The notes under the pieces are model-generated. The model had not been told where the DNA came from. It searched no databases and saw only the letters and a program-made list of their open reading frames with translations. Position numbers and translations under genes: made by a program. From Paraphysomonas bandaiensis (Eukaryota > Protista > Chrysophyceae): a stretch of DNA of 64,000 bases. Shown here piece by piece: positions 45,471-62,955 of the stretch (within the stretch, counting starts at the first letter, position 1; every line of letters starts with the position of its first letter). Location: assembly GCA_965644295.1 (NCBI GenBank), contig CBFFRP010000297.1, positions 930,001-994,000 of the forward strand, given 5' to 3'.

Positions 45471-45597
45471 TAGAGTTGATGAGAGAGCAGCAATAATCAG
45501 TTTGTCCTATGTGGCTTTTGATGGTTGTGTATCCGTAAATTTTGTCTCGTGATGTGAAGGTTCTATCTACTGCTTAGAATTGAGAGAGTGCGTTTAG

Positions 45598-45701
45598 CAG
45601 GGCTAGGGAACATTATATTAAATTGCAATATATTGTATTGTAAAATATATTGATTGGTGCACTGGCTAATATTCCATCAATATAGTTTCTGTTAAAGTGG
45701 C
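45598..45701 (+). mobile_element. Left end of a diverged hAT copy, interrupted by the virus
   Basis: CAGGGCTAGGGAACATTATATT...CCATCAATA.GTTTCTGTTAAA aligns with 23788-23905. Confidence 0.85.
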
Positions 45702-45707
45702 TTCCAA

Positions 45708-46206
45708 AAAAAAAAATAGTGATGATGATGGCCGCTCCGCTCGGCATATGGCTTCATTTTAAATAATCCCATATTTCTATACTTTCTTAATTAATCCATA
45801 TTTCTATATCTATTTTAAATAATTCCATATTTCTATACTTTCTTAAATAAATCCATAAATTATTATTATTATTATTAATTTGACATTTTGGCATTGGCAT
45901 TTCAAATAAAATTATAAGAACTAAAATTATAATTCGAGATTAAAGAAAAAAACAATATTATGTCATGCCAAAAATGCCATTTACTTCATCACCATCAATA
46001 GCAGTAGCGTGTATATATCCCATCGCCACACTATGCACACATACTATAAACATACTAGCTACTGCACCAACACTATCTATACAAATCTTCTCTTTAAATA
46101 CTATTGTTATATGAAATGGTTTAAAGAATTATTTTTCATTTTATTTATTTTAATTTAAAAAGCAATTAAAAACACTTAAAGATAATTTGATATATAATAT
46201 TATAAA
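45708..46206 (+). repeat. Left terminal inverted repeat
   Basis: Reverse complement of 62379-62875. I saw one substitution (AATCCC vs AATTCC near 45768) plus a difference in homopolymer length. Confidence 0.97.
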
Positions 46207-46210
46207 GTAA

Positions 46211-46570
46211 ATGAACATTTTCAAAATATTTCTTAATGTCGATTTTAAACTCAAAGATGATGCTAAACTGTTAGGCGCCAAGTGGGATTCAAATATTAAA
46301 TGTTGGTTTGTATACAGTAATCATTTAAATTGCGAAACACTTGTTGAAAAGTTTGGGGAAAATAAAGAAAAAAGGAAGGATTACAATAAACAGTATAGGA
46401 AGCTAAATAAAGAAAAGATAGCTGAATCGAGAAAAATATACAGAGAAAAGAACAAGGACAAGATAAACGAGAAACATAATTGTGAATGTGGTAGTAAATA
46501 TAGAAAGATCGATAAAGCTAGACATATCAGAACAAAGAAACATGTCAAATATATGGAGGCATTGCATTAA
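46211..46570 (+). CDS. Viral protein with a DUF5710-like N-terminus and a C2H2-type zinc finger
   Basis: LNVDFKLKDDAKLLGAKWD...CWFV; CECG...ARHIRTKKH. Confidence 0.7.
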   Translation: MNIFKIFLNVDFKLKDDAKLLGAKWDSNIKCWFVYSNHLNCETLVEKFGENKEKRKDYNKQYRKLNKEKIAESRKIYREKNKDKINEKHNCECGSKYRKIDKARHIRTKKHVKYMEALH

Positions 46571-46710
46571 TTCCTCATTTTTCCATCAGCAACCATTTCA
46601 CAACTTACTTGTAGTATATAGCGGGAAAGCTGTTGTGTTGTCATCATCGCAATATCAGTTAATGACTTTCTAGCCTTCTTACTGGCCTTGCCTACATTGA
46701 TGTCGTCCAT
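46567..46710 (-). CDS. Small viral ORF (47 aa, MDDINVGKASKKARKS...)
   Basis: Read by hand because it is below the ORF track cutoff. It has a TATA-rich upstream motif like the other viral genes and shares the TTAA stop with the facing gene. Confidence 0.5.
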   Translation of the reverse strand: MDDINVGKASKKARKSLTDIAMMTTQQLSRYILQVSCEMVADGKMRN

Positions 46711-46857
46711 ATTCACAATATGTATAATATATAATATGTATGAACTGTCACAACGTTTACAATTGCAAGTATCTTTTGCGATATTTATATATGCATAATT
46801 TATTTTTTCAGTTTTGCAATATCCTGGATATGCTGAATAACTTGGTCAAAACACTAA

Positions 46858-47054
46858 TTTGAGTGAAAACCCCCCTCTGTTCACTCATTTTGAGTGAAAA
46901 CCCCCTCTGTTCACTCTTTTTGAGTGAAAACCCCCCTCGTTTCACTGGTTTTGAGTGACAACACCCCTCTGTTCACTGGTTTTGAGTGAAAACACCCCTC
47001 TGTTCACTGGTTTTGAGTGAAAACACCCCTCTGTTCACTCATTTTGAGTGAAAA
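46858..47054. repeat. Viral palindromic tandem repeat, ~31-bp unit, 6 full copies plus a partial seventh
   Basis: TTTGAGTGAAAAC(A/C)CCCCTCTGTTCACT(CA/GG)T, with an AGTGAA...TTCACT dyad in each unit. Confidence 0.92.
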
Positions 47055-47135
47055 GTACCAATTTCGAGAGAAAACCCATATTTTATTTGTGGAAACCCAT
47101 TTCTGTTTTATAATACAGTAATATATAGAGACAAT

Positions 47136-48080
47136 ATGAAACATTTTTACACAGATGAAACATTTACATACGTTGTGACCACTGCTAATTTAACTTCAGG
47201 AGATAATGGATCCTGCCAGATACCTATGCTCGCCATCCTTCCTAATGATGTTGAGTACTTTATATGTGTTCCCGTATACTTTCAATCAACATCAAATTTA
47301 TTCTCTACTCCTGCTTCAAGCACTGTAGTATTGGAAGCCAAGGACTTTGTTCACACTGGATACTCTACCAATGGTTTAACAGAGTTCAAAGCAGTAACAC
47401 CCCCTTTATTTGGAGCACAGGGATCTCAACCGAGAGTAGGACTTTTTAACACTGTTGACCAAATGCATTACATAGTTAAAAACTTCAATAATAAAACCAT
47501 TCAATTTACATTTCGAAATTGTGAAGGCTTTGAACAGGATTGTGTAGCTCTTGGTGGATGGCTTAAACAATGGATATTGTATTTATCTCTTACTCCAATA
47601 AGAGCAGAAAAACCGCATTATATCATATCAAACATACAAAAATCTTTCACTTATACGATTACCAATAAAGGGGCTGAAGGATCAGTGAATGATTGCTACA
47701 TAACACTTCCTGCAATAAACGATAATTATAATAATTACTTTGTAGATGTTGTAAATTGCAGTGTAAACAGTGATACTTTTAATTTAGCTTCCATGAGATA
47801 TATCAATATATATGCTTTTGACTGGGCTGAAAATGGATACGGTGGATATAATAATAGGACTGATAGAATGATAATATGTAGTCCATTTATGAAATTTGAT
47901 GATGAACCTTCTCTATTCGGTGGAGATTCTGCAGTATTTAAAATATCAAATATGAAAACAAATAGAAGAATTAGATTTAAAATGGAACAAGCAAATATGA
48001 ATGATGTTGACGCATCAGAAGTAGATATCGGTGGAACGTCATATTATTATATAACATGTAAAATAACGCCAATTAACTAG
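47136..48080 (+). CDS. Viral protein with two tandem penton-like (single jelly-roll) domains
   Basis: Internal duplication (FTYVVTTAN...SCQI / FTYTITNK...DCYI; each half ends (L/I)TPI). It parallels the N- and C-terminal strands of the penton at 52801-53538. Confidence 0.6.
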   Translation: MKHFYTDETFTYVVTTANLTSGDNGSCQIPMLAILPNDVEYFICVPVYFQSTSNLFSTPASSTVVLEAKDFVHTGYSTNGLTEFKAVTPPLFGAQGSQPRVGLFNTVDQMHYIVKNFNNKTIQFTFRNCEGFEQDCVALGGWLKQWILYLSLTPIRAEKPHYIISNIQKSFTYTITNKGAEGSVNDCYITLPAINDNYNNYFVDVVNCSVNSDTFNLASMRYINIYAFDWAENGYGGYNNRTDRMIICSPFMKFDDEPSLFGGDSAVFKISNMKTNRRIRFKMEQANMNDVDASEVDIGGTSYYYITCKITPIN

Positions 48081-48105
48081 TAATATTTTCTGTTATAAAT
48101 ATATA

Positions 48106-48561
48106 ATGCAAAATAACAATAGTTTTACATATGTTATTTCATCTGCCAATGCAGTTTCAGGAGATGCTGAAAACTGCTATATAGATTTAGATCCCCTACC
48201 ACATGATTATAACTGGTACTCTGTTCAATGCACAGGATTTATAATGAATTGTGAGTCATTAGCTGTTGGACATCCTCAATATGTTTTATTGGTAGCAGAT
48301 GATTTGGCAGAAGATGGATATTACCAAGGTTTCGATGCCAATCAGTGTGTATTATCATACTTGAATACCGATGATACAGTTTCACAAATGACATCAGGAG
48401 AAGGATCTCAGTTTAAAGTTAAAAATTTTAAACAAAAAAGAAGAATACATTTTAGTTTATATGAACCAGATTTAACACCTATGGCTGGTGTTGTAGATGA
48501 CTCTGCGACAACATACTGGTGTATATCATTGCTGTTTACCCCTATTTTAGATCTGCAGTAA
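48106..48561 (+). CDS. Viral protein with one penton-like domain, paralogous to 47136-48080
   Basis: SFTYVISSAN...NCYIDL...FKVKNFKQKRRIHFSL...WCISLLFTPI. Confidence 0.6.
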   Translation: MQNNNSFTYVISSANAVSGDAENCYIDLDPLPHDYNWYSVQCTGFIMNCESLAVGHPQYVLLVADDLAEDGYYQGFDANQCVLSYLNTDDTVSQMTSGEGSQFKVKNFKQKRRIHFSLYEPDLTPMAGVVDDSATTYWCISLLFTPILDLQ

Positions 48562-50136
48562 ATCTATGTGTGTTTTCCAAAATATTGAACCTGATCCTAC
48601 AGTTTGAAAATCATTATATGTATGAATCTCAAAAGTCCAATTATCTGCAACATCTCCCACAGTAAATATGAGGGGTGCTAGAGTACACCCAACACGGCTT
48701 ACACTTCCACGATTTGCGTCCCATATACCTGGACCATAAAGAGTTGCTCTTTCTAGCGTTCCATTTTTCTTAACTAATACACTCCCGCGTATATCTGTCC
48801 ATGATTTAATACCCATAATATCAAAAGAAACCTGTAACATATATCGACCTTTGTACTGAATGTAACCTGATGAATCAATCATATCGGAATCGCCACCTGT
48901 AGGTGTTGTACTTAGCTCCGATGAAGTCATATAGTGTCCTCCACTAGCTGTCTGATATGTGCTGTTATAAGCCATAGATGTGAAGTATGTTACTGGATCA
49001 TCAGTTTCTTCCCAATAACAGTTTTTTTTACTGGTTAGTGCATCTAAATCCGTTCTGTCAGAAGAAGTGAATGCTGTTGTTTGTAGAGTGGCATCTGGAA
49101 ATTCTATTTTTTGATAACAATTGATGTGATCACATCTTATTTCATCAATTGCTCCCCCTCCATCTGCTTTTAACAATGTATTCGTTGGATAAGTCCATTC
49201 ATTAGATGTTCTTGTAATATCATCTAACAAAGAGCTATAAGTAGAACTAAACGCTTTTGTTTGTTCACTAGCATCTGGAAATTCAATTACTCCACTTGTT
49301 CCTGTAACTTCTAATCTGCAACTATTTCCAGTTAATCTTAAAGTACTCCCTGTTCCTGAGACACTATGTAAAGCATATGCTTTATTCAATAACAAATCAC
49401 TTGTTATAGTTAAATCGTCAAAACCTCCACCAACATAAGATAAAGGTGTTATAGTTGATTCAATAGTTGCAATGTCAGATGTATTGGTTGCTATATTTGA
49501 TGTGTTAGTAGATATGTTTGTTGTGTTGGTAGATATGTTTGATGTATTGGTTGCTATATTTGATGTGTTAGTAGATATGTTTGATGTGTTGGTAGATATG
49601 TTTGATGTGTTAGTAGATATGTCAGTGGTATTAGTGGATATATTAGTTTCCGCTGTTGAGAGATCTACATCAATACTAGCAATGTCTGCCGTATTAGTGG
49701 ATATATTAGTTGCATTTGTAGATATGTCAGTGGCATTAGTTGCGATATTAGTTGTATTTGTAGATATATTAATTTCCGCTGTTGAGAGATCTACATCAAT
49801 ACTAGCAATGTCTGCCGTATTAGTGGATATATTAGTTGCATTAGTGGATATATTAGTTGCATTTGTAGTCATTTGAGTTTGTGCGTTTGAAGTGAGTCCA
49901 TCAATATAACTTAGCTCAACATCTGTGATGGTAGTTCCATTTGCGACAATACTAGCCCCTGATTGCATTGTAATATCAGTATCAATAATAATGTTACTTG
50001 TTTCAAGTGTATCTAAATAAATATTATCACTTGTTAGACTGCCAGTTGTTATTTCATCGGCTTTTATTGTTTGTAAACCATTCAAAGACGGTATGTTTAA
50101 TGATGTATAACCATTGTTCATAATATCGTTATACAT
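48547..50136 (-). CDS. Putative fibre/spike (receptor-binding) protein
   Basis: Long NISTNT(S/A) heptad coiled-coil, two IEFPDA(S/T)xQTxAF motifs typical of viral fibres, and a beta-rich C-terminal head. Confidence 0.75.
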   Translation of the reverse strand: MYNDIMNNGYTSLNIPSLNGLQTIKADEITTGSLTSDNIYLDTLETSNIIIDTDITMQSGASIVANGTTITDVELSYIDGLTSNAQTQMTTNATNISTNATNISTNTADIASIDVDLSTAEINISTNTTNIATNATDISTNATNISTNTADIASIDVDLSTAETNISTNTTDISTNTSNISTNTSNISTNTSNIATNTSNISTNTTNISTNTSNIATNTSDIATIESTITPLSYVGGGFDDLTITSDLLLNKAYALHSVSGTGSTLRLTGNSCRLEVTGTSGVIEFPDASEQTKAFSSTYSSLLDDITRTSNEWTYPTNTLLKADGGGAIDEIRCDHINCYQKIEFPDATLQTTAFTSSDRTDLDALTSKKNCYWEETDDPVTYFTSMAYNSTYQTASGGHYMTSSELSTTPTGGDSDMIDSSGYIQYKGRYMLQVSFDIMGIKSWTDIRGSVLVKKNGTLERATLYGPGIWDANRGSVSRVGCTLAPLIFTVGDVADNWTFEIHTYNDFQTVGSGSIFWKTHIDLLQI

Positions 50137-50171
50137 TATAATTAGAAATTTAAAAAGTGTATTTATTTATC

Positions 50172-51587
50172 TCAGAATTGGATGTATGCAATTCCAGATT
50201 CGCATACCATAACGGCGTCATACATAGCATAAGTATCAAATCTAACGGATGGAGTGGTGGCATTAGCATTAAAACTCATGTGCCAGAACACATCATCATT
50301 AGATGTATTATATCCTGAGTAGATAGAATCTTTGTCTGCATTTGAATAAGTTTCAAGATCCATACCAACAATGAAACTTTCGGAACTAGCGTTATCAGTA
50401 ACGTAAGCTTCTGTTTCATCATTAACAACTGGTACATCTACATCATAATCACCTAAATCGATATTAGGTTCATGATTGATATCAGACACACTACCAATAG
50501 CTTTTATAGCTTCAATGAAAAACTCTGGAACAGTTTCTGGAGCCTTAGAAGGAACAACCTTAGAGCCCAATCTCAATGTATACGATGCTAAATTATAATG
50601 ACATGATGACATAGGAAAGTATGTTATAGCACCATCTGCTTTTTCTCTTTGTGTCATAAATAGAGACTTCAAGCTGTTAAATTTAGCTGGCACTGGTATA
50701 CTTACTTGCGTCGATGCGTTTGCCAGTGTTGCATTATATACATAGTTTCTCCATGCTGGCACTACCCACTCTAATCTTCCACCAGGAGCGGAATTATTAA
50801 TAATACTCATTGCTTCACTTCCAAGTTCCATAAATTGAGCAACAAATTCGCAGTTGTTTACTTTAAATGATGACAAAGCGAGTTCAGAACATAAAAACTT
50901 TGATGGAGATGAAACTAATTGAAGTTCTAATCTAAGAGGTGCTGATGTCATTGCAAATAGCGGAATGTATTTGTCAGAGAGAGATCCAACAATTGAGAGC
51001 AAGTTAATGGTGTAAGTTCTAGTAAGAGTATCACCACCCGCCGCGATATCTGCAAACTGTGTAGTCTGTGCGTCATCGATAAGTCTTTCACCTGAGTTAA
51101 TTGTAAAAACTTGGTTGGTTGCCCCTTGAATTTTTGTTAACAATGTACCTGCATCGGCTACTGTTGAATCAGTAACATCACAGTAGCTATCTCTACATAA
51201 GCCTGCCATTACATTAAGTTTTCCCTTTACAGAATCACCTGATTGTTGCAATGACATTAGCGTCCCTACAAGGTTACCGTAGTTATCTATATCTTCAAGA
51301 AGTTGGGATCCGTGATATAGTCTTAGTCTTTGGATGCATCCATGAGCCCCTGCTCTGTCTAATCTTACATATGCATTGGCACCTGCTCCATTAGTTACCG
51401 TCAAATCAAATTTCAAGAGTGATTCGGAACCAGCCATAACCAAATTTTGAGATGTAGGGATATTGATTATAATAGTCTGCCCATCTGTGTAGTTTCCAAC
51501 GCCATTCAAAGGTTGTACGTGAGTGCTAAAGTTGCGTGCGTAAGCGCTCGATCGCTTATTTTCGTATTTTAGATTTCTAGGGATCAT
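50172..51587 (-). CDS. Major capsid protein, double jelly-roll, PLV type
   Basis: 471 aa. QP.NG..Y..GQTIIINIP, IQRLRLYHGSQLLEDIDNYG, IPLFAM..PLRLELQL and FIVGMDLE..SG.NT. Located in a module with the penton and ATPase. Confidence 0.88.
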   Translation of the reverse strand: MIPRNLKYENKRSSAYARNFSTHVQPLNGVGNYTDGQTIIINIPTSQNLVMAGSESLLKFDLTVTNGAGANAYVRLDRAGAHGCIQRLRLYHGSQLLEDIDNYGNLVGTLMSLQQSGDSVKGKLNVMAGLCRDSYCDVTDSTVADAGTLLTKIQGATNQVFTINSGERLIDDAQTTQFADIAAGGDTLTRTYTINLLSIVGSLSDKYIPLFAMTSAPLRLELQLVSSPSKFLCSELALSSFKVNNCEFVAQFMELGSEAMSIINNSAPGGRLEWVVPAWRNYVYNATLANASTQVSIPVPAKFNSLKSLFMTQREKADGAITYFPMSSCHYNLASYTLRLGSKVVPSKAPETVPEFFIEAIKAIGSVSDINHEPNIDLGDYDVDVPVVNDETEAYVTDNASSESFIVGMDLETYSNADKDSIYSGYNTSNDDVFWHMSFNANATTPSVRFDTYAMYDAVMVCESGIAYIQF

Positions 51588-51646
51588 AATAGTTATATAT
51601 TATATGGATAAAATAATTATCTATATAATTTCAAAATAAATGCGTT

Positions 51647-52262
51647 TTACACTGTGTTGTTATTCATGTATTCTATATGTTTTTTGGTTTTAATATGTTT
51701 ATGCATAGAATCTCTTCGCATAACTTGACCACAAGTACAGGTAACTTCTTGAGCACATCGTTTTTCATATGGTTCTTTTTTTATCTTTTCTGGGTTCTTT
51801 TATTCCCTTATGTTTGTTTGTTTTCAGATGTTTGTGAATAGAATCTCTTCGCATTACAAGGCCACAAGTACAGGTAACTTCTTCAGCACGACGTTTATTA
51901 TTGGCGTCCTTTCTGTCCTGTCTTTGATTCCTTATACGTTCGTATTCCTTTTTACTCTCCGCGGTATGAACAACGTTTTTGATTTTATTAACACAATCGT
52001 TATTTTGGATGTAGTACCCTTCTCTTGCATGAAGTTCATCTTTGCTGTCACACGGATAGTTTTCTACTAAATAAATGGCACAGTTGGGTTCATCAAGTAT
52101 TTTAAAGGATGAAATGTAGTGATCTTTTCCTTTTTTGTAACCATTATAGTTGTTGCGATGCTTTGCCAATCTTCTGGCTAATGTAGGCTCACATGTTGAT
52201 CCGTAATATGTTTTACCACCTCCAACAATTTTGTAAATTTTACCTTTCTGATAATCAGGCAT
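51647..52262 (-). CDS. GIY-YIG endonuclease with two C-terminal zinc fingers; the second lies beyond a frameshift in an A7 run (51776-51782)
   Basis: GKIYKI...YYGST...RLAKH...ELHAREGYYI. CTCG..MRRDS.HKH.KT.KH occurs twice. The uninterrupted ORF is 51765-52262. Confidence 0.85.
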
Positions 52263-52329
52263 ATTCTTTTATACTCTAATATATTCTTATATCTTAAAGT
52301 ATTTTAAATTAAAAATTGACTTAAACAAT

Positions 52330-52773
52330 TTAAGCAAATCCATCGCCGGCTTCATCTGCAGTTGCTTGTTCAATCTTTTTCCTTACGTTAAATTTTTCCA
52401 GATCATTAGCGTGTTTGTTGGCATGTTTAAGAGCTTTGTTACTTGCGTTCTTATATTTGTGTAAAGCTTTATCCCCTTTATCAAGCCCTTTTCTAGCACC
52501 ATGCAATCCTTTACTTGCTAAAGCTATACCATCGCCTACTATCGGGACGCTACCAGCACCAGCGTCAACTGCAGCGCCTAATACTGCATCGGCTATATCA
52601 ACGCCCTTTCTTGCGTTGTGTAATACCTTTGAACCACTGTTAACAACTTTACGGTTAATCTTTTGGGCTTTATCAAGAACATCGTGAGTTTTATGTCCTA
52701 ATTGGTGAGCTTTCTTATCTATTTTCCGCCCTAGTTTTCGGGTAGCACGATCAAACTTCTTACCTAGTTTCAT
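52330..52773 (-). CDS. Basic viral protein with a Gly/Ala-rich amphipathic segment (candidate core or membrane-penetration protein)
   Basis: Lys-rich helices around AVLGAAVDAGAGSVPIVGDGIALA, inside the structural module. Confidence 0.55.
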   Translation of the reverse strand: MKLGKKFDRATRKLGRKIDKKAHQLGHKTHDVLDKAQKINRKVVNSGSKVLHNARKGVDIADAVLGAAVDAGAGSVPIVGDGIALASKGLHGARKGLDKGDKALHKYKNASNKALKHANKHANDLEKFNVRKKIEQATADEAGDGFA

Positions 52774-52800
52774 GTATATAATATATACACTATATTTTAA

Positions 52801-53538
52801 TTATTCTATATCAAGCTCCAGAGTTAAAGAAAAATGAATACCATTCAGATCAAGCACATCATCATCTTGATCAGTAAGCTTGATATGTAAATTTGTTAAA
52901 TTGTGTACATTATAGATCATATTACGAACATTGTATATATTTGAGTAACTGATCATACTGTGATGGGAAGAATCTACAGGTATACTACATAATATGTTGC
53001 TTTTATTAGGAGTAGAATTATTTATATTATTGATTTGAAAGTTATCTGATGTAACATACACATTTCTTATTGTAAACAAATTCAATGATATGGTACTTGT
53101 AAGTACTTGTGACGTTGATGAGTAAGTTGTATCATCATCTGAAAACCCTAGAACCTCAAAACAGGTAGAATCTGCTTCAAATGTGAAATCATATGTGCTA
53201 TGTGAAAAGGTTAATTTGTTTGTTTTACTGTTATATGTTATTGTTAAAGCGGGTATGTCGGTTGTAATAGCTGTCATCAAGGTATTAACATTATAATTCC
53301 CTTCCGTAATTGTTACCGTTTGAACTCCACCACCATTGACAGTATACTTTAATGTATTGTTTATTGAACTGATGTTATAAAACGAGTAGGGTATCATAGC
53401 CGTTTGAACTGAACAAAATATCTTTCTATGTTTTGGAATATTGATGACCGGTAAATAAAAAACACAATCAGATGTATTGCCGTTAATATATTTACTCGCA
53501 GTCTTGCTGTTTAAAAAGAGACATATCTTTTCGCTCAT
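52801..53538 (-). CDS. Minor capsid protein (penton)
   Basis: LFLNS...IPYSFYNI...ITEGNY...LGF...IKLTDQ..VLDLNG.HFSLTLEL pattern of PLV/NCLDV pentons. Confidence 0.85.
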   Translation of the reverse strand: MSEKICLFLNSKTASKYINGNTSDCVFYLPVINIPKHRKIFCSVQTAMIPYSFYNISSINNTLKYTVNGGGVQTVTITEGNYNVNTLMTAITTDIPALTITYNSKTNKLTFSHSTYDFTFEADSTCFEVLGFSDDDTTYSSTSQVLTSTISLNLFTIRNVYVTSDNFQINNINNSTPNKSNILCSIPVDSSHHSMISYSNIYNVRNMIYNVHNLTNLHIKLTDQDDDVLDLNGIHFSLTLELDIE

Positions 53539-53881
53539 CTATACTATTACAATCATATATTTTTCTATTCATCAACTCCTCCAATGGGGAATCACTAATA
53601 TTTTCGGCTATAGCTTCTAATACTTGTTGCCAACCAGGAATGTGAAATCCAGTTCCATGAGGCATATTATCTAACACGTGACGTATACCTCGTCTTTTAA
53701 AAGAATCGTTGTAGTGTAACATATCTATATCTATAACGTCATCAAGTCGTTTTGGTCTGATCATATAATCAAGTTCATCAGGTAGTTCCTCCTCTGAGTC
53801 AGATGATAAATAGAATTGTAAATCTTCATCATATTGCAAAGATAATGAATCATTGTCGGAATCGTATTCTTGAATATCCAT
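53492..53881 (-). CDS. Acidic hypothetical viral protein
   Basis: 129-aa ORF with TATATA directly upstream; sits between the ATPase and penton genes. Confidence 0.6.
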   Translation of the reverse strand: MDIQEYDSDNDSLSLQYDEDLQFYLSSDSEEELPDELDYMIRPKRLDDVIDIDMLHYNDSFKRRGIRHVLDNMPHGTGFHIPGWQQVLEAIAENISDSPLEELMNRKIYDCNSIDERKDMSLFKQQDCE

Positions 53882-53906
53882 TTTTATATAATACTATTCT
53901 ATAAAT

Positions 53907-54638
53907 TTAATTATTGTCAATTACCAGAGTGTTAAAGTTTTTAAACATCTTATTTTCAACTGTATCAACATCCAAATGATTATAGTTTTTATCATATACA
54001 TAATCATACAACTCCACAGCATTATCTTTGGTCATGTTTAATAACTCTGATGTTACAACTGTCCACTCTTGTTGATTTTTGGGCTTAAACAATGTCATAT
54101 TAGTTATTTGCTTTCTTAATGTGAGTGGAAATAAATTGTATGATTGCAAGGTAAATACAAACGCAGTATTTAAATGCCTAGCTTTAATAAGCATTCTGTT
54201 TAAATGTTTAATCAAAACATTGTCTTTTAAATGATTTGCATAATCATCAATTATAACTAAATTATATTCTGGAGGTATTCCCTGTTCAATATTGCTCTCT
54301 TTTAAACCTGCAAGCTCATCATATATTATATCTAATAATTCTGGTGTTAATTCATGATACACCTTTCCATGCTCACTAAATGGATGCTTTTCTACGCTAA
54401 GAAAGCTACTTTGTGGTGTAATCAAGTATATGTTATCAAACTTGGATCTATAAAATCGTGATGACTTAAACATTGACAATAATAAGCTAGTTTTTCCTGA
54501 ACCTCCTGACCCTATCAAAGTATATATAAACCCGTTTCTATGTGGTAAGTGTTCATTGATATTAGGTATGTATACATCCATAACCTCTTTGATTGGGGCT
54601 GTATTAGGCAAATCTGATGGTGATTCTGTTATCTTCAT
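53907..54638 (-). CDS. A32-like (FtsK-HerA) genome packaging ATPase
   Basis: Walker A GSGGSGKT, Walker B VIIDD, ARH arginine finger and LQ....P..LR motif. Confidence 0.92.
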   Translation of the reverse strand: MKITESPSDLPNTAPIKEVMDVYIPNINEHLPHRNGFIYTLIGSGGSGKTSLLLSMFKSSRFYRSKFDNIYLITPQSSFLSVEKHPFSEHGKVYHELTPELLDIIYDELAGLKESNIEQGIPPEYNLVIIDDYANHLKDNVLIKHLNRMLIKARHLNTAFVFTLQSYNLFPLTLRKQITNMTLFKPKNQQEWTVVTSELLNMTKDNAVELYDYVYDKNYNHLDVDTVENKMFKNFNTLVIDNN

Positions 54639-54697
54639 ACTATACTATGAGTGAATATATTATTTTACCAAAGATTTTTTTCTTCGATAACTATATA

Positions 54698-55243
54698 ATG
54701 GTAGAACCCGAAGAATATATAGAAGAATCAATCCCCTTGACGAAACCAAAGAGAGTAGTCAAACAACTTCCCACCATACCTGAGGAATCTGTTAGCACAG
54801 CACCCCCTCAGCCCGCTCCTGTTAAGAAAAAGAGAGTTATGACAAAGCCTAAAACACAAGCTCAACTAGAAGCATTTGAAAAGGCAAGACAAAAGAGAGC
54901 AGAGAATGCAGTAAAGAGGAAACAAGAAAAAGAATTACATTATGCAAAACTATTAGCCCAGCATCAATCAGAAAAACAACCGGAACCAGAACAAGTAGTA
55001 TCGAAGCCAGTTCCTAGACGAGCACCCAGACAAAAGATTATTTATGAAGATTCTGAATCTGAATCTGAACCTGAAATTGTGTATGTAAAGAAACCATCTA
55101 AGAGAAAACCGAAAAAGAAAACAATTGTTATTGAATCATCATCAGAATCAGAATCAGATGATGATAGAACTGTATCAATACAAAGGCAACCAGTTATTCA
55201 AAGACAACAGACACCATTTAATTCAGATGACTATTTTGCATAA
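54698..55243 (+). CDS. Basic/acidic low-complexity viral protein (candidate DNA-binding or core protein)
   Basis: ATG at 54698 after TATATA; KKKRVMTKPKTQAQLEAFEKAR motif and SESE tracts. Confidence 0.7.
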   Translation: MVEPEEYIEESIPLTKPKRVVKQLPTIPEESVSTAPPQPAPVKKKRVMTKPKTQAQLEAFEKARQKRAENAVKRKQEKELHYAKLLAQHQSEKQPEPEQVVSKPVPRRAPRQKIIYEDSESESEPEIVYVKKPSKRKPKKKTIVIESSSESESDDDRTVSIQRQPVIQRQQTPFNSDDYFA

Positions 55244-55272
55244 TATTATCTTTCACTAATATATAAATACTA

Positions 55273-56499
55273 ATGAAGGACAAGAAAATCTATTTATCTC
55301 TTGACGACCTACATAAACTTTATGGAATAGCACCCGATTTAATTCTAAAACGAAAAAAAAATAAAAAGAAACGTAAAGCAAAAGGTAAAAAGAAAAGTAA
55401 TTTTGGTACAGGTGTGAATAAACAATTTGGAGGCGGAGGTGTAGGAGGTGTATCAGGTGTTGGTGCAGTAACCAGCTCAACAATTGATAGAAGAGAAATT
55501 GATATTTTGAGAGGACAACTAAATGAAGCTAAAAACAATCCAAAGAATCCCGCCAATGAGGGAGTGTTAAGACTTGAAAATGTACCAGAAGAGTTGAAAG
55601 AGACTTTGAAATTTGCCAAATTGGCTAACGATGGTTACGCATCTGGAAATGTTAAAGTATCTCAAACTTCAGCAGGTAATTTAATAATGGGTCCAACATC
55701 ACAAAAGCAAAAGACAGCACAAAGAAGAAGAGCTATTGACATATCCAGAAACGTAGATCATACCATCAATCCAGCACCACCAATACCATCCAGAAATGAT
55801 TTGATGCACAAGCAACCATTAGAATTAAAATCAGAATCTGATGATAATAAGGTTGAAGAACTAGATGATGATGAAAAAGAAGATGTTGAAGATATACCAT
55901 TTCCTGCAGAACCTAAAACTAAATTAGTTAGGGTTAAAAAAGTAGGAAGAACGGAAGCACAAGAAGAAGCAATAAAAAGATTAGTTCAATTGAATAAAGA
56001 TAAGAAAAGTGAAAGATTGAACAGAGAAGGTATGGCGAGAGAAGACTATGATGCCGATGATGCCGATAAAATGATTAAAGCAACAAAACACTTTGAACAG
56101 AAACATATGCGTCAAGGATTTGATGGTATATTTGTTCATCATGAGCCGATCACCGGACAAATGAATAGAACGAGACGAACACATATGAATATAGAACAGA
56201 AAGATCAAAAAGAAGATAAAGATATGCACAATTTGAAAAAGAAGCATTATGCCTCAACCCACAAAATCAAGCCACCAAGCACACCGGTGCCTAGTCAATA
56301 CTTCATGAAATCTAATCGAATAGGAATAACAAATTCTAACAGTGACAGTAGTGATGAAGATGATACACCTGTTCGTATTCTACATAGCAAGTCGAAACCA
56401 GTAGGGGTTAGTAGAATCGATCCAAAAAGCACACCAGTGTCAAAATTGGAATTTGGTTGGGGGGATTGGAGCAGTGATAATTCTGATGGATTTGTTTAA
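55273..56499 (+). CDS. Hypothetical viral protein, Lys-rich and low-complexity
   Basis: 408-aa ORF with an NLS-like KRKKNKKKRK and an RTEAQEEAIKR motif similar to the one in the preceding gene. Confidence 0.7.
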   Translation: MKDKKIYLSLDDLHKLYGIAPDLILKRKKNKKKRKAKGKKKSNFGTGVNKQFGGGGVGGVSGVGAVTSSTIDRREIDILRGQLNEAKNNPKNPANEGVLRLENVPEELKETLKFAKLANDGYASGNVKVSQTSAGNLIMGPTSQKQKTAQRRRAIDISRNVDHTINPAPPIPSRNDLMHKQPLELKSESDDNKVEELDDDEKEDVEDIPFPAEPKTKLVRVKKVGRTEAQEEAIKRLVQLNKDKKSERLNREGMAREDYDADDADKMIKATKHFEQKHMRQGFDGIFVHHEPITGQMNRTRRTHMNIEQKDQKEDKDMHNLKKKHYASTHKIKPPSTPVPSQYFMKSNRIGITNSNSDSSDEDDTPVRILHSKSKPVGVSRIDPKSTPVSKLEFGWGDWSSDNSDGFV

Positions 56500-56544
56500 A
56501 CACATATATAAAATATTTAAATATTTTGTGTTGCAATTATATAA

Positions 56545-57036
56545 ATGCGAAGAGTAGTTATTAATAACCCAGACACTCGGCCTCTTGGTGTTGAAGAAGT
56601 AGAGCAAGAGGTAAAACGTGAATGTAGTTTCAGACGCAGATCCATCCCAGACAAAAAACTTTTTAATGTTGAATTAAATGGACTCTCAGACAAAATTAAG
56701 GAAATAAAACTTGAAAACCAACAATATGAACTAGTTACAAAGATTCAAGCTGTTCTAGATCTATTTGATCCTGAATCAAATAAATACAATGAGCAAATTC
56801 TCTTGTTTGCTTGCCAATCGGTTGAAAATTTCATTACCAAGCCAAAATCCGGAGATCGAAAGCTTGCTGTTGTAATTGAAGCTGTTAAAAAGTATTTCAA
56901 TGAGGATATTGAATTGATTGCTAAAATGGTGGAAATATTGCTCCCACGAATTAAGAAAATGAATATTGTTAGACGCAATTGGAAACGTGTGGTCCGTTTT
57001 TTTTGCGGTCTGTCGCAGAACGAGCTGTCGATATAG
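56545..57036 (+). CDS. Hypothetical viral protein
   Basis: 163-aa ORF with TATATAAATG start context. Confidence 0.65.
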   Translation: MRRVVINNPDTRPLGVEEVEQEVKRECSFRRRSIPDKKLFNVELNGLSDKIKEIKLENQQYELVTKIQAVLDLFDPESNKYNEQILLFACQSVENFITKPKSGDRKLAVVIEAVKKYFNEDIELIAKMVEILLPRIKKMNIVRRNWKRVVRFFCGLSQNELSI

Positions 57037-57117
57037 CTGTATCAAAAGCTTTTAAAATGTTACTGTTGCCCATGATCCTTGCCATTTTATAATTTTATTG
57101 ATTATTAATATATAATA

Positions 57118-57414
57118 ATGAATAAAGAAAAAGTTAAACATTACCAACGTACATACTACGTAAAGAATAGGGATAAAATGATTTTGAGAAATAGAATATA
57201 TTACCATGAACACCAAGCACAATGTAATGCAACATCAAAGGCTTGGTATAAAAAGAAAGTAAAGGAATTGAAAGAAAGTGGAGAATATATGGATTTTGTG
57301 AAAGAAAGGAATGCAAAGCAAAGAAAAAGTAGGAAAGTTAAGGGGAGAAATAAACAACGGAATAAGGAATGTTATAAAGTAGATGATGATAGCTTTATAA
57401 TAATATTTAATTAA
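57118..57414 (+). CDS. Small basic viral protein
   Basis: 98 aa with YYxKN/YYHEH/WYKK repeats; TATATA upstream. Confidence 0.6.
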   Translation: MNKEKVKHYQRTYYVKNRDKMILRNRIYYHEHQAQCNATSKAWYKKKVKELKESGEYMDFVKERNAKQRKSRKVKGRNKQRNKECYKVDDDSFIIIFN

Positions 57415-57794
57415 AGATTTTTATGTTTGCTTGAACACTTATGTTTAGTTTTTTGAGATTCAGGGAATGATTCTTGACATCCCCAACAGTACATTAATGG
57501 ATCAGTTTCACGAGCAGGGAGCTGATGCTTCAGCGAGTCGTCTTGTTTAGATTTCTTAATGTCTTCTAATTCTTGTTTAATAATTTCTAATTCGGCTACT
57601 ATATCATTGCGTGGTTGCTTTCGTGAAGCTCTTGATTTACATAAATTTGTTGTTTGATGTTTTTTCATGTTTTGATGTGATACCACTTTACCACATAAAG
57701 AGCATTCTTCTTTCTCAAAAAGTTTAGCACATATCTGTTCTTTCTTTGATGCATAGTATTTTTTGTTATACTCCTTTCTTGATTGAGTATCCAT
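57411..57794 (-). CDS. Zinc-finger viral protein
   Basis: CSLCGK...KKHQTTNLC and CWGC...KHKC motifs. Confidence 0.7.
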   Translation of the reverse strand: MDTQSRKEYNKKYYASKKEQICAKLFEKEECSLCGKVVSHQNMKKHQTTNLCKSRASRKQPRNDIVAELEIIKQELEDIKKSKQDDSLKHQLPARETDPLMYCWGCQESFPESQKTKHKCSSKHKNL

Positions 57795-57878
57795 TATGTA
57801 TATACTATTATATATTAATATATTTTTAAGCCATTTTAATTATTATTATTTATATTTTTATATGTAGCTATTATATAT

Positions 57879-58933
57879 ATGAATGCTTTGATTGATAAAT
57901 ATGGGATCGATGAAACATTGACAAGACCCCTAAAGAAATCAAAAGGTAAAAAGAAGAAGTATAATAGAATTAAGGATAATATTCCATTGAAGGAGGATTA
58001 CAACTTCATGGCTGATGTATTGCACTTGCCAAAGGATAAAAAAGGGTATAGGTACTTGTTAGTTGTGGTGGATTTAGCAACAAATGAATTTGATATGGAA
58101 CCAATGAAAACAGAAGATAGCGAGGAAACATATTATCGGCAATGAAAGCTATATTTAAACGTAAGCATATCAACAAGCCATACGCATCAATAAGGACAGA
58201 TGGTGGTGCTTCATTTAAGAAAAAGGTTCATAAGTACTTAGTTGGGGAGGATATTTTACACAAAACTGGAGTGGCTGGTCGGCATACTCAGAGTAGTGCA
58301 GTGGAGAGTTTGAATAGAACATTGGGTAGATTTTTTAATGGATATATGAATTCTGTAGAATTAGAAACTGGGAAAGTATATCGAGAATGGACGGATATCG
58401 TTGACAGGTTGAGAATAGATTTAAATAAACTTCGCAAGATAGATATTTCACACAATGATCCAGCAAGTGATTTAAAAGCGGTACCAGATATTACTGAACC
58501 TTCTAAATTGAAGGTAGGCGATCTGGTTCACAGAAAATTAGATAAACCCAAAAACGCACTCAATGAAACTCTTAATTCGGACGTGTTCAGAGAAGGCGAT
58601 TTTAGATGGGATCCTATACCTGTCAAGATTACAGAAGTCTTATTCTATGGAGGTGATGTGACATACAGATATATGTTAAGTGGTATTAAAAATGCATCTT
58701 TTACAGAAGATGAACTTTTATTAGCAGAAGATCAAGAAGAAGATGAACAGATTGAAATTAAAAAGATTCTTGATAGAAGATTCTTTGATGGTGAAGATCA
58801 TTACCATGTATGGATGTATGGGGAACTAAAGAAAGATGCTGGATGGTACGCGAAGAGTGATTTAATTAAAACTGGTAATAAGAAGCTATTACAAGATTAC
58901 GATAAAGAATTTAATAAAAAGACAAAGGTTTAA
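57879..58933 (+). pseudogene. Retroviral-type (rve, DDE) integrase with C-terminal chromodomain, split by a frameshift at ~58130
   Basis: ADVLHLP..YLLVVVD in ORF 57879-58145; IRTDGG..F, AVESLNRTL, LKVGDLV and IKKILDRR..YHVWMYG..W in ORF 58142-58933. Removing one TA from ACATATTATCG fuses the two frames. Confidence 0.88.
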
Positions 58934-60117
58934 TCTAAATGTGTATACCCGTTTGCATGTCTCCATTCAATATTACCAGATGTTTTATCTTCTCGTAATA
59001 AATTTGGTATATCTAATTTTGGATCAACCTTGAAAGTAACATTATCCGTATGAATTCTTATCACGTTATCAATATCTTTCAATGCAACTTTAGCAATTGT
59101 GTTTCTAGTTAGGGCCATTAAGAAAGCTTTAATTCTTATTTGATATGAATACGGATTTTCTGTATCTAGAAGTGTATAATAATCTTTTTCTCCATCATGT
59201 TCAACTTTGTGGACAACCCATTTATGTTTTGGAAGTGTACCCCAATCATAACCCTGATCTATTAAATCTTGTTCAGTTTTGCACATTCTATTTCGTTTTG
59301 TAAGATTTCCCCATAGAGATGAGGTGATATGTTTGATTAATTTATTTTTTGGAAAAGCTTCTTTGATAGCAAATAGTTTATCAAACCAAGTTCTGAATAT
59401 ATCATTGCATGAAACCAAATCTTTCTTTTTGTATAAGTATGCGTTTGGCTTGCCATCTTGAAATAATTCAATTTCCACATTAAATTGTTTTTTGTATTTT
59501 AGTGCTTGCTGTAGTGACGAATGTGTATATATATTTCGCGGAGAAAATGCAAATATCTTTCGGAAGTTATTATCATTGCATGTTATTTTTACTCTGTAAT
59601 AACCTGTTTTAAGCTTACGTCTTTTCTTTAATTTCTTTAGAATCTTTTCTTTGCCTGGTTTATTAGGAATCATCATATCACCATAAGCTAATAATCTAGG
59701 GAAAAAACTTGAATAATCATATCCAAATGATTCATATGTACCTGGATCACAAAATGTTAAACCACCATTGAAACAAGCATCAATCCATTTGTTTTCAGTT
59801 TTACCAATCTTCTCATGATCTTCCCATTTGCCTTTACATAATCGTTGAAATGTAAGTTTGACAGCGTTCTCATGAGTCCAATACTTTTTGTAATCAATAC
59901 TAAGAATTTTTAGTTGATTAAATCTAAGTTCTCTACACCATGCTCGAAAATCTTTTGCATATTTCTTGATACCTTCATCAGAACAGTCATATCCTTTGAA
60001 CAAATAATATCGATACTCTAGTTTACAAACTTCTTTGAGTGGCATATCAGACCATGTGTATGGATCGGTGCACATTACTCTATATGTGCCATCAGGTTTT
60101 TTATAGTAAAAATTCAT
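58930..60117 (-). CDS. Minimal family B DNA polymerase (pPolB-related) with no recognisable exonuclease domain
   Basis: FNGG, motif A YDYSSFFP, motif B KHITSSLWG and motif C IHTDNV in only 395 aa. Confidence 0.82.
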   Translation of the reverse strand: MNFYYKKPDGTYRVMCTDPYTWSDMPLKEVCKLEYRYYLFKGYDCSDEGIKKYAKDFRAWCRELRFNQLKILSIDYKKYWTHENAVKLTFQRLCKGKWEDHEKIGKTENKWIDACFNGGLTFCDPGTYESFGYDYSSFFPRLLAYGDMMIPNKPGKEKILKKLKKRRKLKTGYYRVKITCNDNNFRKIFAFSPRNIYTHSSLQQALKYKKQFNVEIELFQDGKPNAYLYKKKDLVSCNDIFRTWFDKLFAIKEAFPKNKLIKHITSSLWGNLTKRNRMCKTEQDLIDQGYDWGTLPKHKWVVHKVEHDGEKDYYTLLDTENPYSYQIRIKAFLMALTRNTIAKVALKDIDNVIRIHTDNVTFKVDPKLDIPNLLREDKTSGNIEWRHANGYTHLD

Positions 60118-60179
60118 TCTAATTATTATATATTTATTATAGATAATTATTTCTTAAGTGTTTTTTATATGCGTTTCAA

Positions 60180-60599
60180 TTAAAAGAAATTATCATCATC
60201 AGAATCAATATCGTCGTCTGGAATAAAGAACATTAGTTGAATTTGATAAAAGTTTTTGAATTTATTAATATCTCCACCATCTTTAACAAAGGACTCATAG
60301 TAATCATCCATATCATCATCGTCTTTAATTTCAGAATTGTATCCTTTAAGTGTATGCATCTTTTCAATGTTCTGAGCTCTGACAACAAATTTAGTACCGG
60401 CTTTTGTTGAGGGGTCTTTCTCTATTGCTGATACCATACCTCTGATATCATCTAAAGTAATTTTGGCTTTTTTATCTTTTCTATATATTTGTATTGTTTT
60501 CCTTTCACCATCTGGTATCTTTTTTGAATCTATTACCTTCTTATTGTAAACAGACTTTGCTTTGGACTGCTTAGATTTTACAGACTTCTTTTTAACCAT
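60180..60599 (-). CDS. Hypothetical viral protein in the replication module
   Basis: 139 aa with a basic N-terminus and acidic C-terminus, between the helicase and PolB genes. Confidence 0.65.
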   Translation of the reverse strand: MVKKKSVKSKQSKAKSVYNKKVIDSKKIPDGERKTIQIYRKDKKAKITLDDIRGMVSAIEKDPSTKAGTKFVVRAQNIEKMHTLKGYNSEIKDDDDMDDYYESFVKDGGDINKFKNFYQIQLMFFIPDDDIDSDDDNFF

Positions 60600-60643
60600 T
60601 ATATAATTATATACTATATAATAATTCCTTAAGTAAATTTTAA

Positions 60644-62374
60644 TTATAATAAATTTAATATATCATTAATATCATCTTTGGTAAAACTTGTATCTTCCGG
60701 TTGTATGAATATATTCTTTTTGAATGTTGGTGGGATAGAATCGCATTCATCATCAGACTCGTATTCATAAGTTACCTTTCTAACTTTTTTATGTTTAGAT
60801 GGATTGCATTGTTGTGCTTCTTGAAGTTGCTGTTTGAGGCTTTCAATTTCTGCTTTAGCATCATCTAGTTTATTTTCTAATTGTACCATATAATCAGTGA
60901 TATGATTTTCTTTAACACCATTTCCAACTAGCTTCTTAATTTTCAATTTAATATGTGTAAAGCATCCTCGTACGCCATCAACCCGTGAACTTGGGTTGTA
61001 GATTAAACCTTTGTCTTTTAAAGAAGTTATTATTTGAACCATAGATAAATGCTTATCTGGATACGCCTTTTTAAAATACATTTCCATATCAGATTTGCTT
61101 ATTCTATCACTTGATTTATCTGACTGACAAAAATGGCCATCTACAAAATCTTGCATAACATCATTTGTGTTCAATACTGAATCTTTTGTTTCGGTAAAGT
61201 TTTTATTGAACTTTGGTTTTTCTCCTTTAGACCACTTGTAACAATATTTTGCCAAAATATCAAACCATGCGTTTAAGAGACCACCCTTGACTATCTTATC
61301 CAATAAATATTTATCTTTGAGATAAATGTGATTTGATTCATCCACTTCATTGGGTTTATCCACAAATGTGCTTCCATGGGTATAACCTCTAAATCTTCTG
61401 ACAACACCAGTATCAACTTTAATACCTATCATAGTATTAGCAGTGATGAAAGGTTTTGAGTTGTGAGTAATATCGTGAGATTCATCTTCATATAATTTAG
61501 TAGTTTGCAATTTACCTTCACAGAACTTTTTAAACAGTGTTTCATCAATCTTGACATCTTTGATTTCGTTTATCCAAGTAATTCTTATTTGAGGATTGTT
61601 AGCAAAAGTATTTAAGATCTTGTCAATTTTACTGTTGTTCTGACTGAATGTATCGTTTTTGAGTTCCTTGAAATAACATTCGAATGCTTTCTGTGATAAT
61701 TCCATTATGAAAGATTTTCCCGCAGAAGCTTTTCCTAAGAGAAACAATGTATCTTGATCAACATTAGACTTACCACTAAGGGAAGATCCAAGAGTTAGAA
61801 GTACACATTTCATATCTTCATTATCGGGGTAAATCTTTCTAATATGTGCCATCATCTCTTCTCTCTCTTCTTCGGATGATTTAACGTAATCTCTGTGTAT
61901 ATATTGAGTTATGTAATGCTGGTGTAATTTTCTTTGCCTAAATTTCTTGTGTAGAAGATCATAGTAACCATTGTTAAAATGTATCTCATATGGAGTATCA
62001 TTAAATAGTACATCGTTCGTATCTAGCATGGTAATAATTTGATTATAATACGTTTCAACCATTGCATTTTGAAACATCTTAGGGAATGTTTTAACATTTT
62101 TGTATTTCAACAGTTGTTGCTGATCCTCACTTAAAGCTTGGTAAGACTTTTGTATATAACTTGTGATTATTGTCATTAGTTTTGCTTTGCTCATGCTCAA
62201 TGGCAATGCGGTGTAAGTTAAGTTATTATTAATGATGTACAATAAATGTTTACTGATAAAGCAATAATTCCGAAGTCCTTTGACTATAGTGGAAGCTTTG
62301 TCGTTGGGGTATTGAGAGGTTGCAAGAAGATCTATATCATCTGAGTTCATTAAATCGGAATTCTTAAAATTCAT
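60644..62374 (-). CDS. Superfamily 3 (D5-like) helicase
   Basis: D5_N-like IHFNNGYYDL, Walker A GKASAGKS, Walker B WINE and motif C ITAN. ATG at 62374. No primase motifs recognised. Confidence 0.88.
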   Translation of the reverse strand: MNFKNSDLMNSDDIDLLATSQYPNDKASTIVKGLRNYCFISKHLLYIINNNLTYTALPLSMSKAKLMTIITSYIQKSYQALSEDQQQLLKYKNVKTFPKMFQNAMVETYYNQIITMLDTNDVLFNDTPYEIHFNNGYYDLLHKKFRQRKLHQHYITQYIHRDYVKSSEEEREEMMAHIRKIYPDNEDMKCVLLTLGSSLSGKSNVDQDTLFLLGKASAGKSFIMELSQKAFECYFKELKNDTFSQNNSKIDKILNTFANNPQIRITWINEIKDVKIDETLFKKFCEGKLQTTKLYEDESHDITHNSKPFITANTMIGIKVDTGVVRRFRGYTHGSTFVDKPNEVDESNHIYLKDKYLLDKIVKGGLLNAWFDILAKYCYKWSKGEKPKFNKNFTETKDSVLNTNDVMQDFVDGHFCQSDKSSDRISKSDMEMYFKKAYPDKHLSMVQIITSLKDKGLIYNPSSRVDGVRGCFTHIKLKIKKLVGNGVKENHITDYMVQLENKLDDAKAEIESLKQQLQEAQQCNPSKHKKVRKVTYEYESDDECDSIPPTFKKNIFIQPEDTSFTKDDINDILNLL

Positions 62375-62378
62375 TTCG

Positions 62379-62875
62379 TTTATAATATTATATATCAAAT
62401 TATCTTTAAGTGTTTTTAATTGCTTTTTAAATTAAAATAAATAAAATGAAAAATAATTCTTTAAACCATTTCATATAACAATAGTATTTAAAGAGAAGAT
62501 TTGTATAGATAGTGTTGGTGCAGTAGCTAGTATGTTTATAGTATGTGTGCATAGTGTGGCGATGGGATATATACACGCTACTGCTATTGATGGTGATGAA
62601 GTAAATGGCATTTTTGGCATGACATAATATTGTTTTTTTCTTTAATCTCGAATTATAATTTTAGTTCTTATAATTTTATTTGAAATGCCAATGCCAAAAT
62701 GTCAAATTAATAATAATAATAATAATTTATGGATTTATTTAAGAAAGTATAGAAATATGGAATTATTTAAAATAGATATAGAAATATGGATTAATTAAGA
62801 AAGTATAGAAATATGGAATTATTTAAAATGAAGCCATATGCCGAGCGGAGCGGCCATCATCATCACTATTTTTTT
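62379..62875 (-). repeat. Right terminal inverted repeat
   Basis: Reverse complement of 45708-46206. Confidence 0.97.
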
Positions 62876-62881
62876 TTCCAA

Positions 62882-62955
62882 GCTCACAATAGTATTGCAC
62901 TCAATATTATGATAGTCAAATACGAAAAGATTCTTAACTCTAGGGCGCATAATGC
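62882..62955 (+). mobile_element. Continuation of the interrupted hAT copy
   Basis: ACAATAGTATTGCACTCAATATTATGATAGTCA..AGATTCTTAACTCTAGGGCGCA aligns with ~23912-23985. Confidence 0.8.

What the first reader, a model, noticed from the sequence alone, without database searches (positions are those of the whole stretch)
45598..62955. The virus integrated inside a hAT transposon end, and the pre-insertion site can be rebuilt from this window
Seen: joining 45598-45707 to 62882-62955 gives a continuous sequence collinear with the left end of the hAT element at 23788-23985, with TTCCAA duplicated at the junction. This supports true integrase-mediated insertion over contamination or a chimeric assembly. 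Inference: the chromodomain-bearing integrase may favour transposon-rich chromatin.
Basis: partly seen in the sequence, partly recalled or inferred. Interest (0 to 1): 0.7.

Follow-up and report, generated by a model that had tools for sequence, protein, structure and literature searches.

The report
Polinton-like virus inside a transposon end
A 17-kb virus-like element sits inside the end of an older small transposon in a eukaryote's chromosome, likely put there by its own integrase; this is an ordinary, already described kind of nesting, and nothing here shows that the virus aims for transposons.

Summary
A 17.17-kb element (45708-62875/62877, 507-bp inverted ends) splits a copy of a short hAT-like transposon 110 bp inside its left end. 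Each flank aligns, in order and within about 2 nt, to the intact copy at 23788-24584. The duplication is 4-6 bp, not surely 6, because the element ends in A/T runs; by itself it is modest evidence (about 1% by chance). Public-run contigs show the element at host single-copy depth, and their ends fit a filled right junction with no empty allele (inferred from lengths). The element is a Polinton-like virus with a mavirus-like polymerase and an rve integrase broken by a frameshift. The targeting idea is not supported: one event has no power in a repeat-rich region, a second transposon-end nesting lies nearby, and this chromodomain lacks all three methyl-lysine cage residues, as do its closest intact relatives. 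Such viruses nested in transposons, and the chromodomain idea, are already in print. New member of a known kind; low interest.

The parts
45708..62877 (.). Endogenous Polinton-like virus, 17,170 bp (17,168 if the duplication is 6 bp), GC 32% against 40-42% in the host DNA
45708..46214 (+). Left terminal inverted repeat, 507 bp, 3 mismatches to the right one (1 in the outer 499 bp); begins with an A run
62371..62877 (-). Right terminal inverted repeat
45702..45707 (+). Target-site duplication, left copy (TTCCAA; the last 4, 5 or 6 bases)
62876..62881 (+). Target-site duplication, right copy
45598..45707 (+). Left 110 bp of the interrupted hAT-like element, starting at its terminus
   Evidence: contigs of runs X1 and X3 also start matching at 45598 (table 5)
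62882..62963 (+). Continuation of the interrupted hAT-like element; similarity to the reference copy stops here
23788..24584 (+). Reference copy: 797-bp non-autonomous hAT-like element with inverted ends and a perfect 8-bp duplication (23780-23787, 24585-24592)
50172..51587 (-). Double jelly-roll major capsid protein, 471 aa
53907..54638 (-). A32-like packaging ATPase, 243 aa
   Evidence: Pfam PF04665 E 3.8e-12
52801..53538 (-). Likely minor capsid protein, 245 aa (fold not tested)
   Evidence: DUF5901 E 1.2e-6; found in 77 of 81 related viral loci that carry the capsid gene; viral clusters in the Atlas
57879..58145 (+). rve integrase, N-terminal part with the first catalytic Asp; broken from the rest by a frameshift near its 3' end
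   Evidence: same letters in contigs of X1, X3, X8
58142..58933 (+). rve integrase, C-terminal part with the second Asp, the Glu and a chromodomain (residues about 201-245) without aromatic cage
58930..60117 (-). Short protein-primed-type family B polymerase, 395 aa, structurally nearest the mavirus enzyme
60644..62374 (-). Likely D5-type superfamily 3 helicase, 576 aa
   Evidence: Pfam D5_N E 3e-4, just below cut-off; P-loop seen in the sequence
48547..50136 (-). 529-aa protein with heptad-like repeats, possibly a fibre (inferred from sequence only)
   Evidence: no Pfam match

Best explanation
A Polinton-like virus is inserted 110 bp inside the left end of an older hAT-like transposon copy, likely by an rve integrase of its own family, and it likely landed or survived there because the region is repeat-rich and tolerant, not because it was aimed there. 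Shown: collinear flanks, 507-bp inverted ends, a 4-6 bp duplication, capsid, ATPase, polymerase and integrase genes, a frameshift in the integrase, and a chromodomain without its aromatic cage. Inferred: linear viral DNA reached the nucleus and an rve integrase joined both ends by a staggered cut, whose repair made the duplication; the event is young next to the hAT divergence (ends 99.8% alike in the outer 499 bp, hAT copies 86%); the insertion is fixed in the cells sequenced; and this copy cannot now make a whole integrase, so it would move only with help from a sister element.
For: Collinearity far above shuffles. Element contigs identical or nearly identical to the window lie at host depth: X1 28-34 against 33-40; X3 90-117 against 90-113; X8 3.5-5.8 against 4.0; X9 3.5-6.6 against 5.7. 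The right-flank contig runs exactly 32 letters past 62880 in both X1 and X3, the number predicted for a filled site; a co-existing empty allele predicts a stop after 4. Duplications of 3-6 bp are reported for rve-integrase viruses (PMC8547959 section 9; 10.1101/068312 passages). For chance landing: 8,920 of 46,830 host bases are repeated within the window, low-complexity DNA left out; the hAT-like end draws summed depth several hundred times single-copy (rough); a second nesting into a transposon end lies at 25422-30820; cage residues are I/M/E. Mavirus and EMALEs show no sequence-specific integration, with 15 sites inside predicted genes.
Against: Junction letters were never printed: the read tool skipped the element's end as a repeat, so the right junction rests on contig length and the left junction was not shown bridged. 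X1 or X3 may be the sample the window came from. All runs are contigs, which drop rare alleles. The duplication alone has about 1-7% chance probability. Landing in this one transposon family is a rare event a priori (about 2% of the window's host DNA), which is weakly what targeting would give. A cage-less chromodomain may still bind chromatin some other way (type II chromodomains, partner unknown; PMC6317226 passages).
Confidence: 0.8

Rival explanations
1. Real insertion, steered to silenced transposon chromatin by the integrase chromodomain reading methylated histone tails.
For: The family profile matches HP1-type chromodomains (E 8e-10); 62 of 120 relatives keep three aromatic cage residues. 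PLVs and virophages are often found in repeats in Halocafeteria; 18 of 29 EMALE sites lie within 10 kb of repeats.
Against: This copy has 0 of 3 cage residues; three of its four closest intact relatives have 0 and one has 1, so the loss is not decay after insertion. One event cannot show preference. EMALE sites are mostly in genes.
Confidence: 0.05
2. Real insertion, steered by a re-purposed cage-less chromodomain to something else: AT-rich subterminal repeats of the transposon, nucleosome DNA or a host protein bound there.
For: The domain is kept at full length in intact cage-less relatives, which group in one 22-row branch (support 88, quick tree); the site lies among short palindromic subterminal repeats.
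Against: No second site is known; the domain may have another job or none; the branch is not strongly supported.
Confidence: 0.08
3. The element is real but was placed at this site by a misassembly through the multi-copy hAT end.
For: Both junctions lie in a high-copy repeat; junction letters were not seen; the bases beside the site match the reference copy poorly.
Against: The right-flank contig joins more than 2 kb of unique host DNA to a 32-letter end as predicted, in two studies; a misjoin has no reason to give a duplication and a 2-nt register; depths match.
Confidence: 0.05
4. Contaminating free virus joined in by the assembler.
For: Low GC; many relatives exist as free viral contigs.
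Against: Depth tracks the host in four runs from about 4 to about 100; the integrase frameshift is shared by three runs.
Confidence: 0.02

Closest known systems
Endogenous PLVs and virophages nested in host transposons, Halocafeteria seosinensis (bioRxiv 10.64898/2026.07.28.741278; passages and section 8 read)
   Same: TIR- and TSD-bounded viruses inserted into repeats and transposon remnants; replication and integration genes swapped between PLVs and virophages; explained as landing where tolerated.
   Different: Hosts there are MULE and LINE loci; here a short hAT-like element, with the site placed to within about 2 nt.
Mavirus and EMALEs of Cafeteria burkhardae (PMC8547959, passages and section 9; 10.1101/068312, passages)
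   Same: rve integrase with chromodomain, short polymerase (best structural match, E 1.7e-23, TM 0.76), about 0.5-0.6 kb TIRs, 3-6 bp duplications, no sequence consensus at sites; chromodomain steering already proposed there.
   Different: The capsid protein here is 10% identical to mavirus's and ranks it low among structural matches; no maturation protease was found; the polymerase is 395 aa against 617.
pPolB-carrying mavirus-related elements, group 1 (PMC13215967, parts 1-2 of 6 read)
   Same: Palm-retaining short pPolB with separate SF3 helicase; more than a third of such elements carry chromodomain, rve and capsid genes.
   Different: Placement in their tree was not tested here.
Polinton-like viruses, Aquintoviricetes sense (PMC10120064 and PMC12220804 passages; bioRxiv 10.64898/2026.06.19.733378 passages and section 7)
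   Same: 14-40 kb, double jelly-roll capsid, A32 ATPase, TIRs, 4-6 bp duplications, exchangeable replication module.
   Different: Most carry tyrosine recombinases or other replicases; among 34 related viral loci of 14 kb or more, 2 had this integrase and 1 this polymerase. The capsid group was not assigned.
Type II chromodomains of plant chromoviruses (PMC6317226, passages)
   Same: Integrase-linked chromodomain that has lost cage residues; partner unknown.
   Different: Type II loses the first and usually the last residue; here the middle one is lost too.

Membership tests
Polinton-like virus | Double jelly-roll major capsid protein | tested here: met
   Model pLDDT 88.5; Foldseek E 4e-17 to solved viral capsid proteins
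Polinton-like virus | A32-like packaging ATPase | tested here: met
   PF04665 E 3.8e-12, above cut-off
Polinton-like virus | Minor capsid protein | tested here: inconclusive
   245-aa gene travels with the capsid gene in 77 of 81 loci; fold not predicted
Polinton-like virus | 14-40 kb with TIRs and a short duplication | tested here: met
   17.17 kb, 507-bp TIRs, 4-6 bp duplication
Polinton-like virus | Assignment to a named capsid group | not testable with these tools
   No PLV group profiles on hand; top structural matches are unnamed
Polinton/Maverick (Polintoviricetes) | Full-length pPolB with terminal-protein, vOTU and exonuclease domains | tested here: not met
   395 aa; 120 relatives have median 410 aa; alignment to phi29 polymerase begins at its residue 58
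Polinton/Maverick (Polintoviricetes) | rve integrase | tested here: met
   D, D, E conserved; profile matches retroviral integrases; this copy is frameshifted
Polinton/Maverick or virophage | Cysteine maturation protease | tested here: inconclusive
   No Pfam match among 19 element ORFs scanned; several ORFs remain unexplained
Virophage (mavirus-like) | Virophage-type capsid protein | tested here: inconclusive
   Virophage capsids match by fold at 10-12% identity but are not the best matches; no tree made
pMVRE group 1 | Short pPolB nearest mavirus, with separate SF3 helicase | tested here: met
   Best viral structural match is mavirus polymerase; helicase call is weak (D5_N E 3e-4)
pMVRE group 1 | Placement in the pPolB tree | not tested
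   Reference set not on hand
hAT superfamily (flanking element) | 8-bp duplication and short terminal inverted repeats | tested here: met
   Met for the copy at 23788-24584; the 8-bp rule is recalled knowledge
hAT superfamily (flanking element) | hAT transposase domain | tested here: inconclusive
   A 72-aa frame at 23981-24196 recalls the dimerisation motif (from memory) but has no Pfam match at E 1
hAT superfamily (interrupted copy) | Own right end and 8-bp duplication | not testable with these tools
   Not within the window; no genome held
Type I (methyl-lysine reading) chromodomain | Chromodomain homology | tested here: met
   Family profile E 8e-10 to HP1; the window's protein alone E 0.39
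Type I (methyl-lysine reading) chromodomain | Three aromatic cage residues | tested here: not met
   I204, M225, E228, columns set by the HP1 alignment

The most novel reading that the evidence does not exclude
A lineage of PLV integrases has turned its chromodomain from a methyl-lysine reader into a cage-less tether that steers the virus to the AT-rich ends of host DNA transposons, giving a DNA virus a programmed safe harbour.
Probability: 0.06. Interest if true: 0.65.

Novelty: new member of a known kind. Interest (0 to 1): 0.22.

Why it matters
As it stands it is a clean, well-bounded example of a known process, useful as a reference insertion and as one more PLV with a mavirus-like replication and integration module. 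It would matter more if the site were chosen: how PLVs and virophages pick insertion sites is open, and the natural split between cage-bearing (62 of 120) and cage-less (11 of 120) integrases in one family offers a direct comparative test.

Tried and rejected
No whole genome is held, so other copies, their flanks and a hAT family consensus could not be collected. A 24-base motif from the element's end had no exact match in viral or metagenome contigs, and a hAT-end motif none in metagenome contigs; this shows only that the host is not in those collections at that sensitivity. No loose ends naming other insertion sites were shown; run X16 laid nothing on the right junction, which proves nothing. 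The host lineage was not settled: ribosomal protein eL13 scores 133 bits to plant and about 110 to most animal chains and the phosphagen kinase matches many lineages; a protist is my impression, not a result. Sequence searches of the polymerase and helicase against solved structures found nothing; only the fold search identified the polymerase. The 139-aa gene beside the polymerase had no Atlas hit and no match to the N-termini of polymerase relatives. A fixed 6-bp duplication was rejected as unproven. Reading the short polymerase as a decayed fragment was rejected, since relatives have the same length. Reading the split integrase as an assembly error was rejected, since three runs carry the same letters. 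Earlier scan notes held nothing on this locus. Gao et al. 2008 could not be opened. Supplements of the cited papers were not read; they list per-site flanks and duplications that may bear on the targeting question. Searches listed no paper that measures chromodomain-dependent site choice in PLVs, but I read only the papers named.
Full report
Observation. The element runs from 45708 to 62875-62877 and has 507-bp inverted ends with three mismatches, one of them in the outer 499 bp. It is 32% GC against 40-42% for the host DNA. The left flank 45598-45707 aligns to 23788-23915 with score 130 (best of 200 shuffles 47), and the right flank 62887-62963 to 23923-23999 with score 102 (best shuffle 44). 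Aligned separately, the flanks meet the reference within about 2 nt, and gap-free blocks are 142 of 166 identical. The reference, 23788-24584, has inverted ends and a perfect 8-bp duplication, which fits a non-autonomous hAT element by recalled rules; its short coding remnant has no Pfam match, so 'hAT-like' is the fair name.

The duplication. TTCCAA stands on both sides, but the element ends in an A run and a T run, so six placements of the ends fit, with duplications of 4, 5 or 6 bp. With that freedom, random host flanks reach 6 bp in 1.1% and 4 bp in 7.4% of 40,000 trials. The bases beside the site match the reference poorly (6 of 11 against 136 of 155); a 14-base word just right of the site recurs exactly in the other end of the reference copy, so a subfamily difference is the likely cause. 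The window thus fixes the order and spacing of the empty site, not its letters.

Support from other data. No genome is held. Of 24 runs listed, 8 hold half or more of the words of 40500-48500; all are contigs. I laid six. In X1, element contigs with no differences have depth 28-34 and host contigs 33-40; in X3, 90-117 and 90-113; X8 and X9 show the same match at depth 3.5-6.6. On the right junction, one contig of 2.6-2.8 kb in X1 and in X3 covers the flank and goes 32 letters beyond 62880; in X5 a short contig goes 10 beyond; X16 laid nothing. A 31-letter word graph of the window predicts 32 for a filled site, while filled and empty alleles share only 4. So the right junction is supported and no empty allele shows, by inference from length: the letters were not printed, the left junction was not shown bridged, contigs lose rare alleles, and one of these runs may be the window's own source.

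What the element is. The 471-aa protein folds (pLDDT 88.5) as a double jelly-roll capsid protein and has 461 relatives in the protein collection. The 243-aa protein is an A32 ATPase. The 395-aa protein folds (pLDDT 97) like phi29 polymerase (Z 18.3, rmsd 3.7, 318 aligned) and best matches the mavirus polymerase (E 1.7e-23, TM 0.76); 120 relatives have a median length of 410 aa and keep the catalytic aspartates, so it is short by design. The 576-aa protein is a likely D5-type helicase. The integrase lies in two overlapping frames, 57879-58145 and 58142-58933; relatives are one protein of about 340 aa with D, D and E conserved, and contigs of X1, X3 and X8 show no gap across the break, so the break is real. 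Among 34 capsid-related viral loci of 14 kb or more, 2 carry this integrase and 1 this polymerase, which fits the module swapping described for PLVs. The gene set matches the mavirus-related pPolB elements of PMC13215967.

The targeting idea. A profile of 99 integrase sequences matches HP1-type chromodomains at E 8e-10. At the three cage columns the window's protein has Ile204, Met225 and Glu228; of 120 relatives, 62 keep three aromatics, 34 two, 12 one, 11 none and 1 has a gap. On a quick tree of the catalytic core (118 rows; 3 relatives dropped as too short or gapped), all 10 cage-less rows, the window's included, fall in one 22-row branch with support 88, and three of the four closest relatives are cage-less. 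One insertion has no statistical power: 8,920 of 46,830 host bases are repeated within the window alone, not counting a 5-kb satellite, and a different DNA element sits inside another transposon's end at 25422-30820. Other copies could not be collected, and depth in the terminal repeat suggests only a few exist (rough).

What is known. Mavirus insertions have 5-6 bp duplications and no consensus. EMALEs have mostly 3-5 bp, no sequence preference, 18 of 29 sites within 10 kb of repeats and 15 in predicted genes, and the authors already name the chromodomain as a possible guide. The same suggestion is made for adintoviruses (PMC8502044, passages). PLVs and virophages nested in host transposons are described in Halocafeteria and read there as landing where tolerated. 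I also saw passages of PMC11244446, PMC12220804, PMC10120064 and PMC11161782; no supplements were read.

Verdict. The insertion is real with about 0.93 probability, the site is most likely incidental, and the finding is a new member of a known kind. Interest 0.22. The better leads are the cage-bearing against cage-less split in this integrase family and the sister element whose depth differs about fivefold between near-identical hosts.

Noticed in passing
window 48430-48790 and 51850-52350, runs X1, X3, X8, X9: A sister element about 91% identical in the capsid-side genes has contig depth about 5 times single-copy in X1, 25 times in X3, 3 times in X8 and 25 or more in X9, although X1 and X3 match the window almost letter for letter. 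This may be a copy-number difference or free replicating virus in some cultures; contig depth is a rough measure.
   Followed up: partly
window 25012-30841: A second nesting: a 5.4-kb element with about 123-bp inverted ends (25422-30820) sits inside the right end of a smaller inverted-repeat element (left end 25012-25068; right end split between 25395-25421 and 30825-30841).
   Followed up: partly
window 25870-29678 and 36667-39975: An inverted second copy, 88-99% alike, of most of that 5.4-kb element, with gene-like frames including a PDZ-like one.
   Followed up: no
window 60180-60599: A 139-aa gene directly upstream of the short polymerase; a homolog (E 1e-9) lies in the same position in L008. 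It could be a stand-alone terminal protein, which the polymerase lacks; untested.
   Followed up: partly
proteins P0121-P0240: The aromatic cage of the integrase chromodomain varies by lineage: 62 keep three residues, 34 two, 12 one, 11 none, 1 gap; the states cluster on a tree of the catalytic core.
   Followed up: yes
window 3406-3558, 29852-30000, 36420-36606, 40996-41183, 44725-44874: Five copies of a roughly 140-bp dispersed repeat, with very high summed depth in all four runs.
   Followed up: no
window 16779-21954: A satellite of 227 copies of a 23-bp unit.
   Followed up: no
window 46858-47054: Inside the virus, a non-coding array of 6.4 copies of a 31-bp unit next to the left repeat; the terminal repeats also hold 28-bp tandem units.
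   Followed up: no
L035: A free viral contig with this capsid family, a related integrase, a longer polymerase and inverted ends that also begin with an A run.
   Followed up: no
window 5341-7995: An uninterrupted 884-aa host frame with a possible signal peptide and no Pfam match.
   Followed up: no
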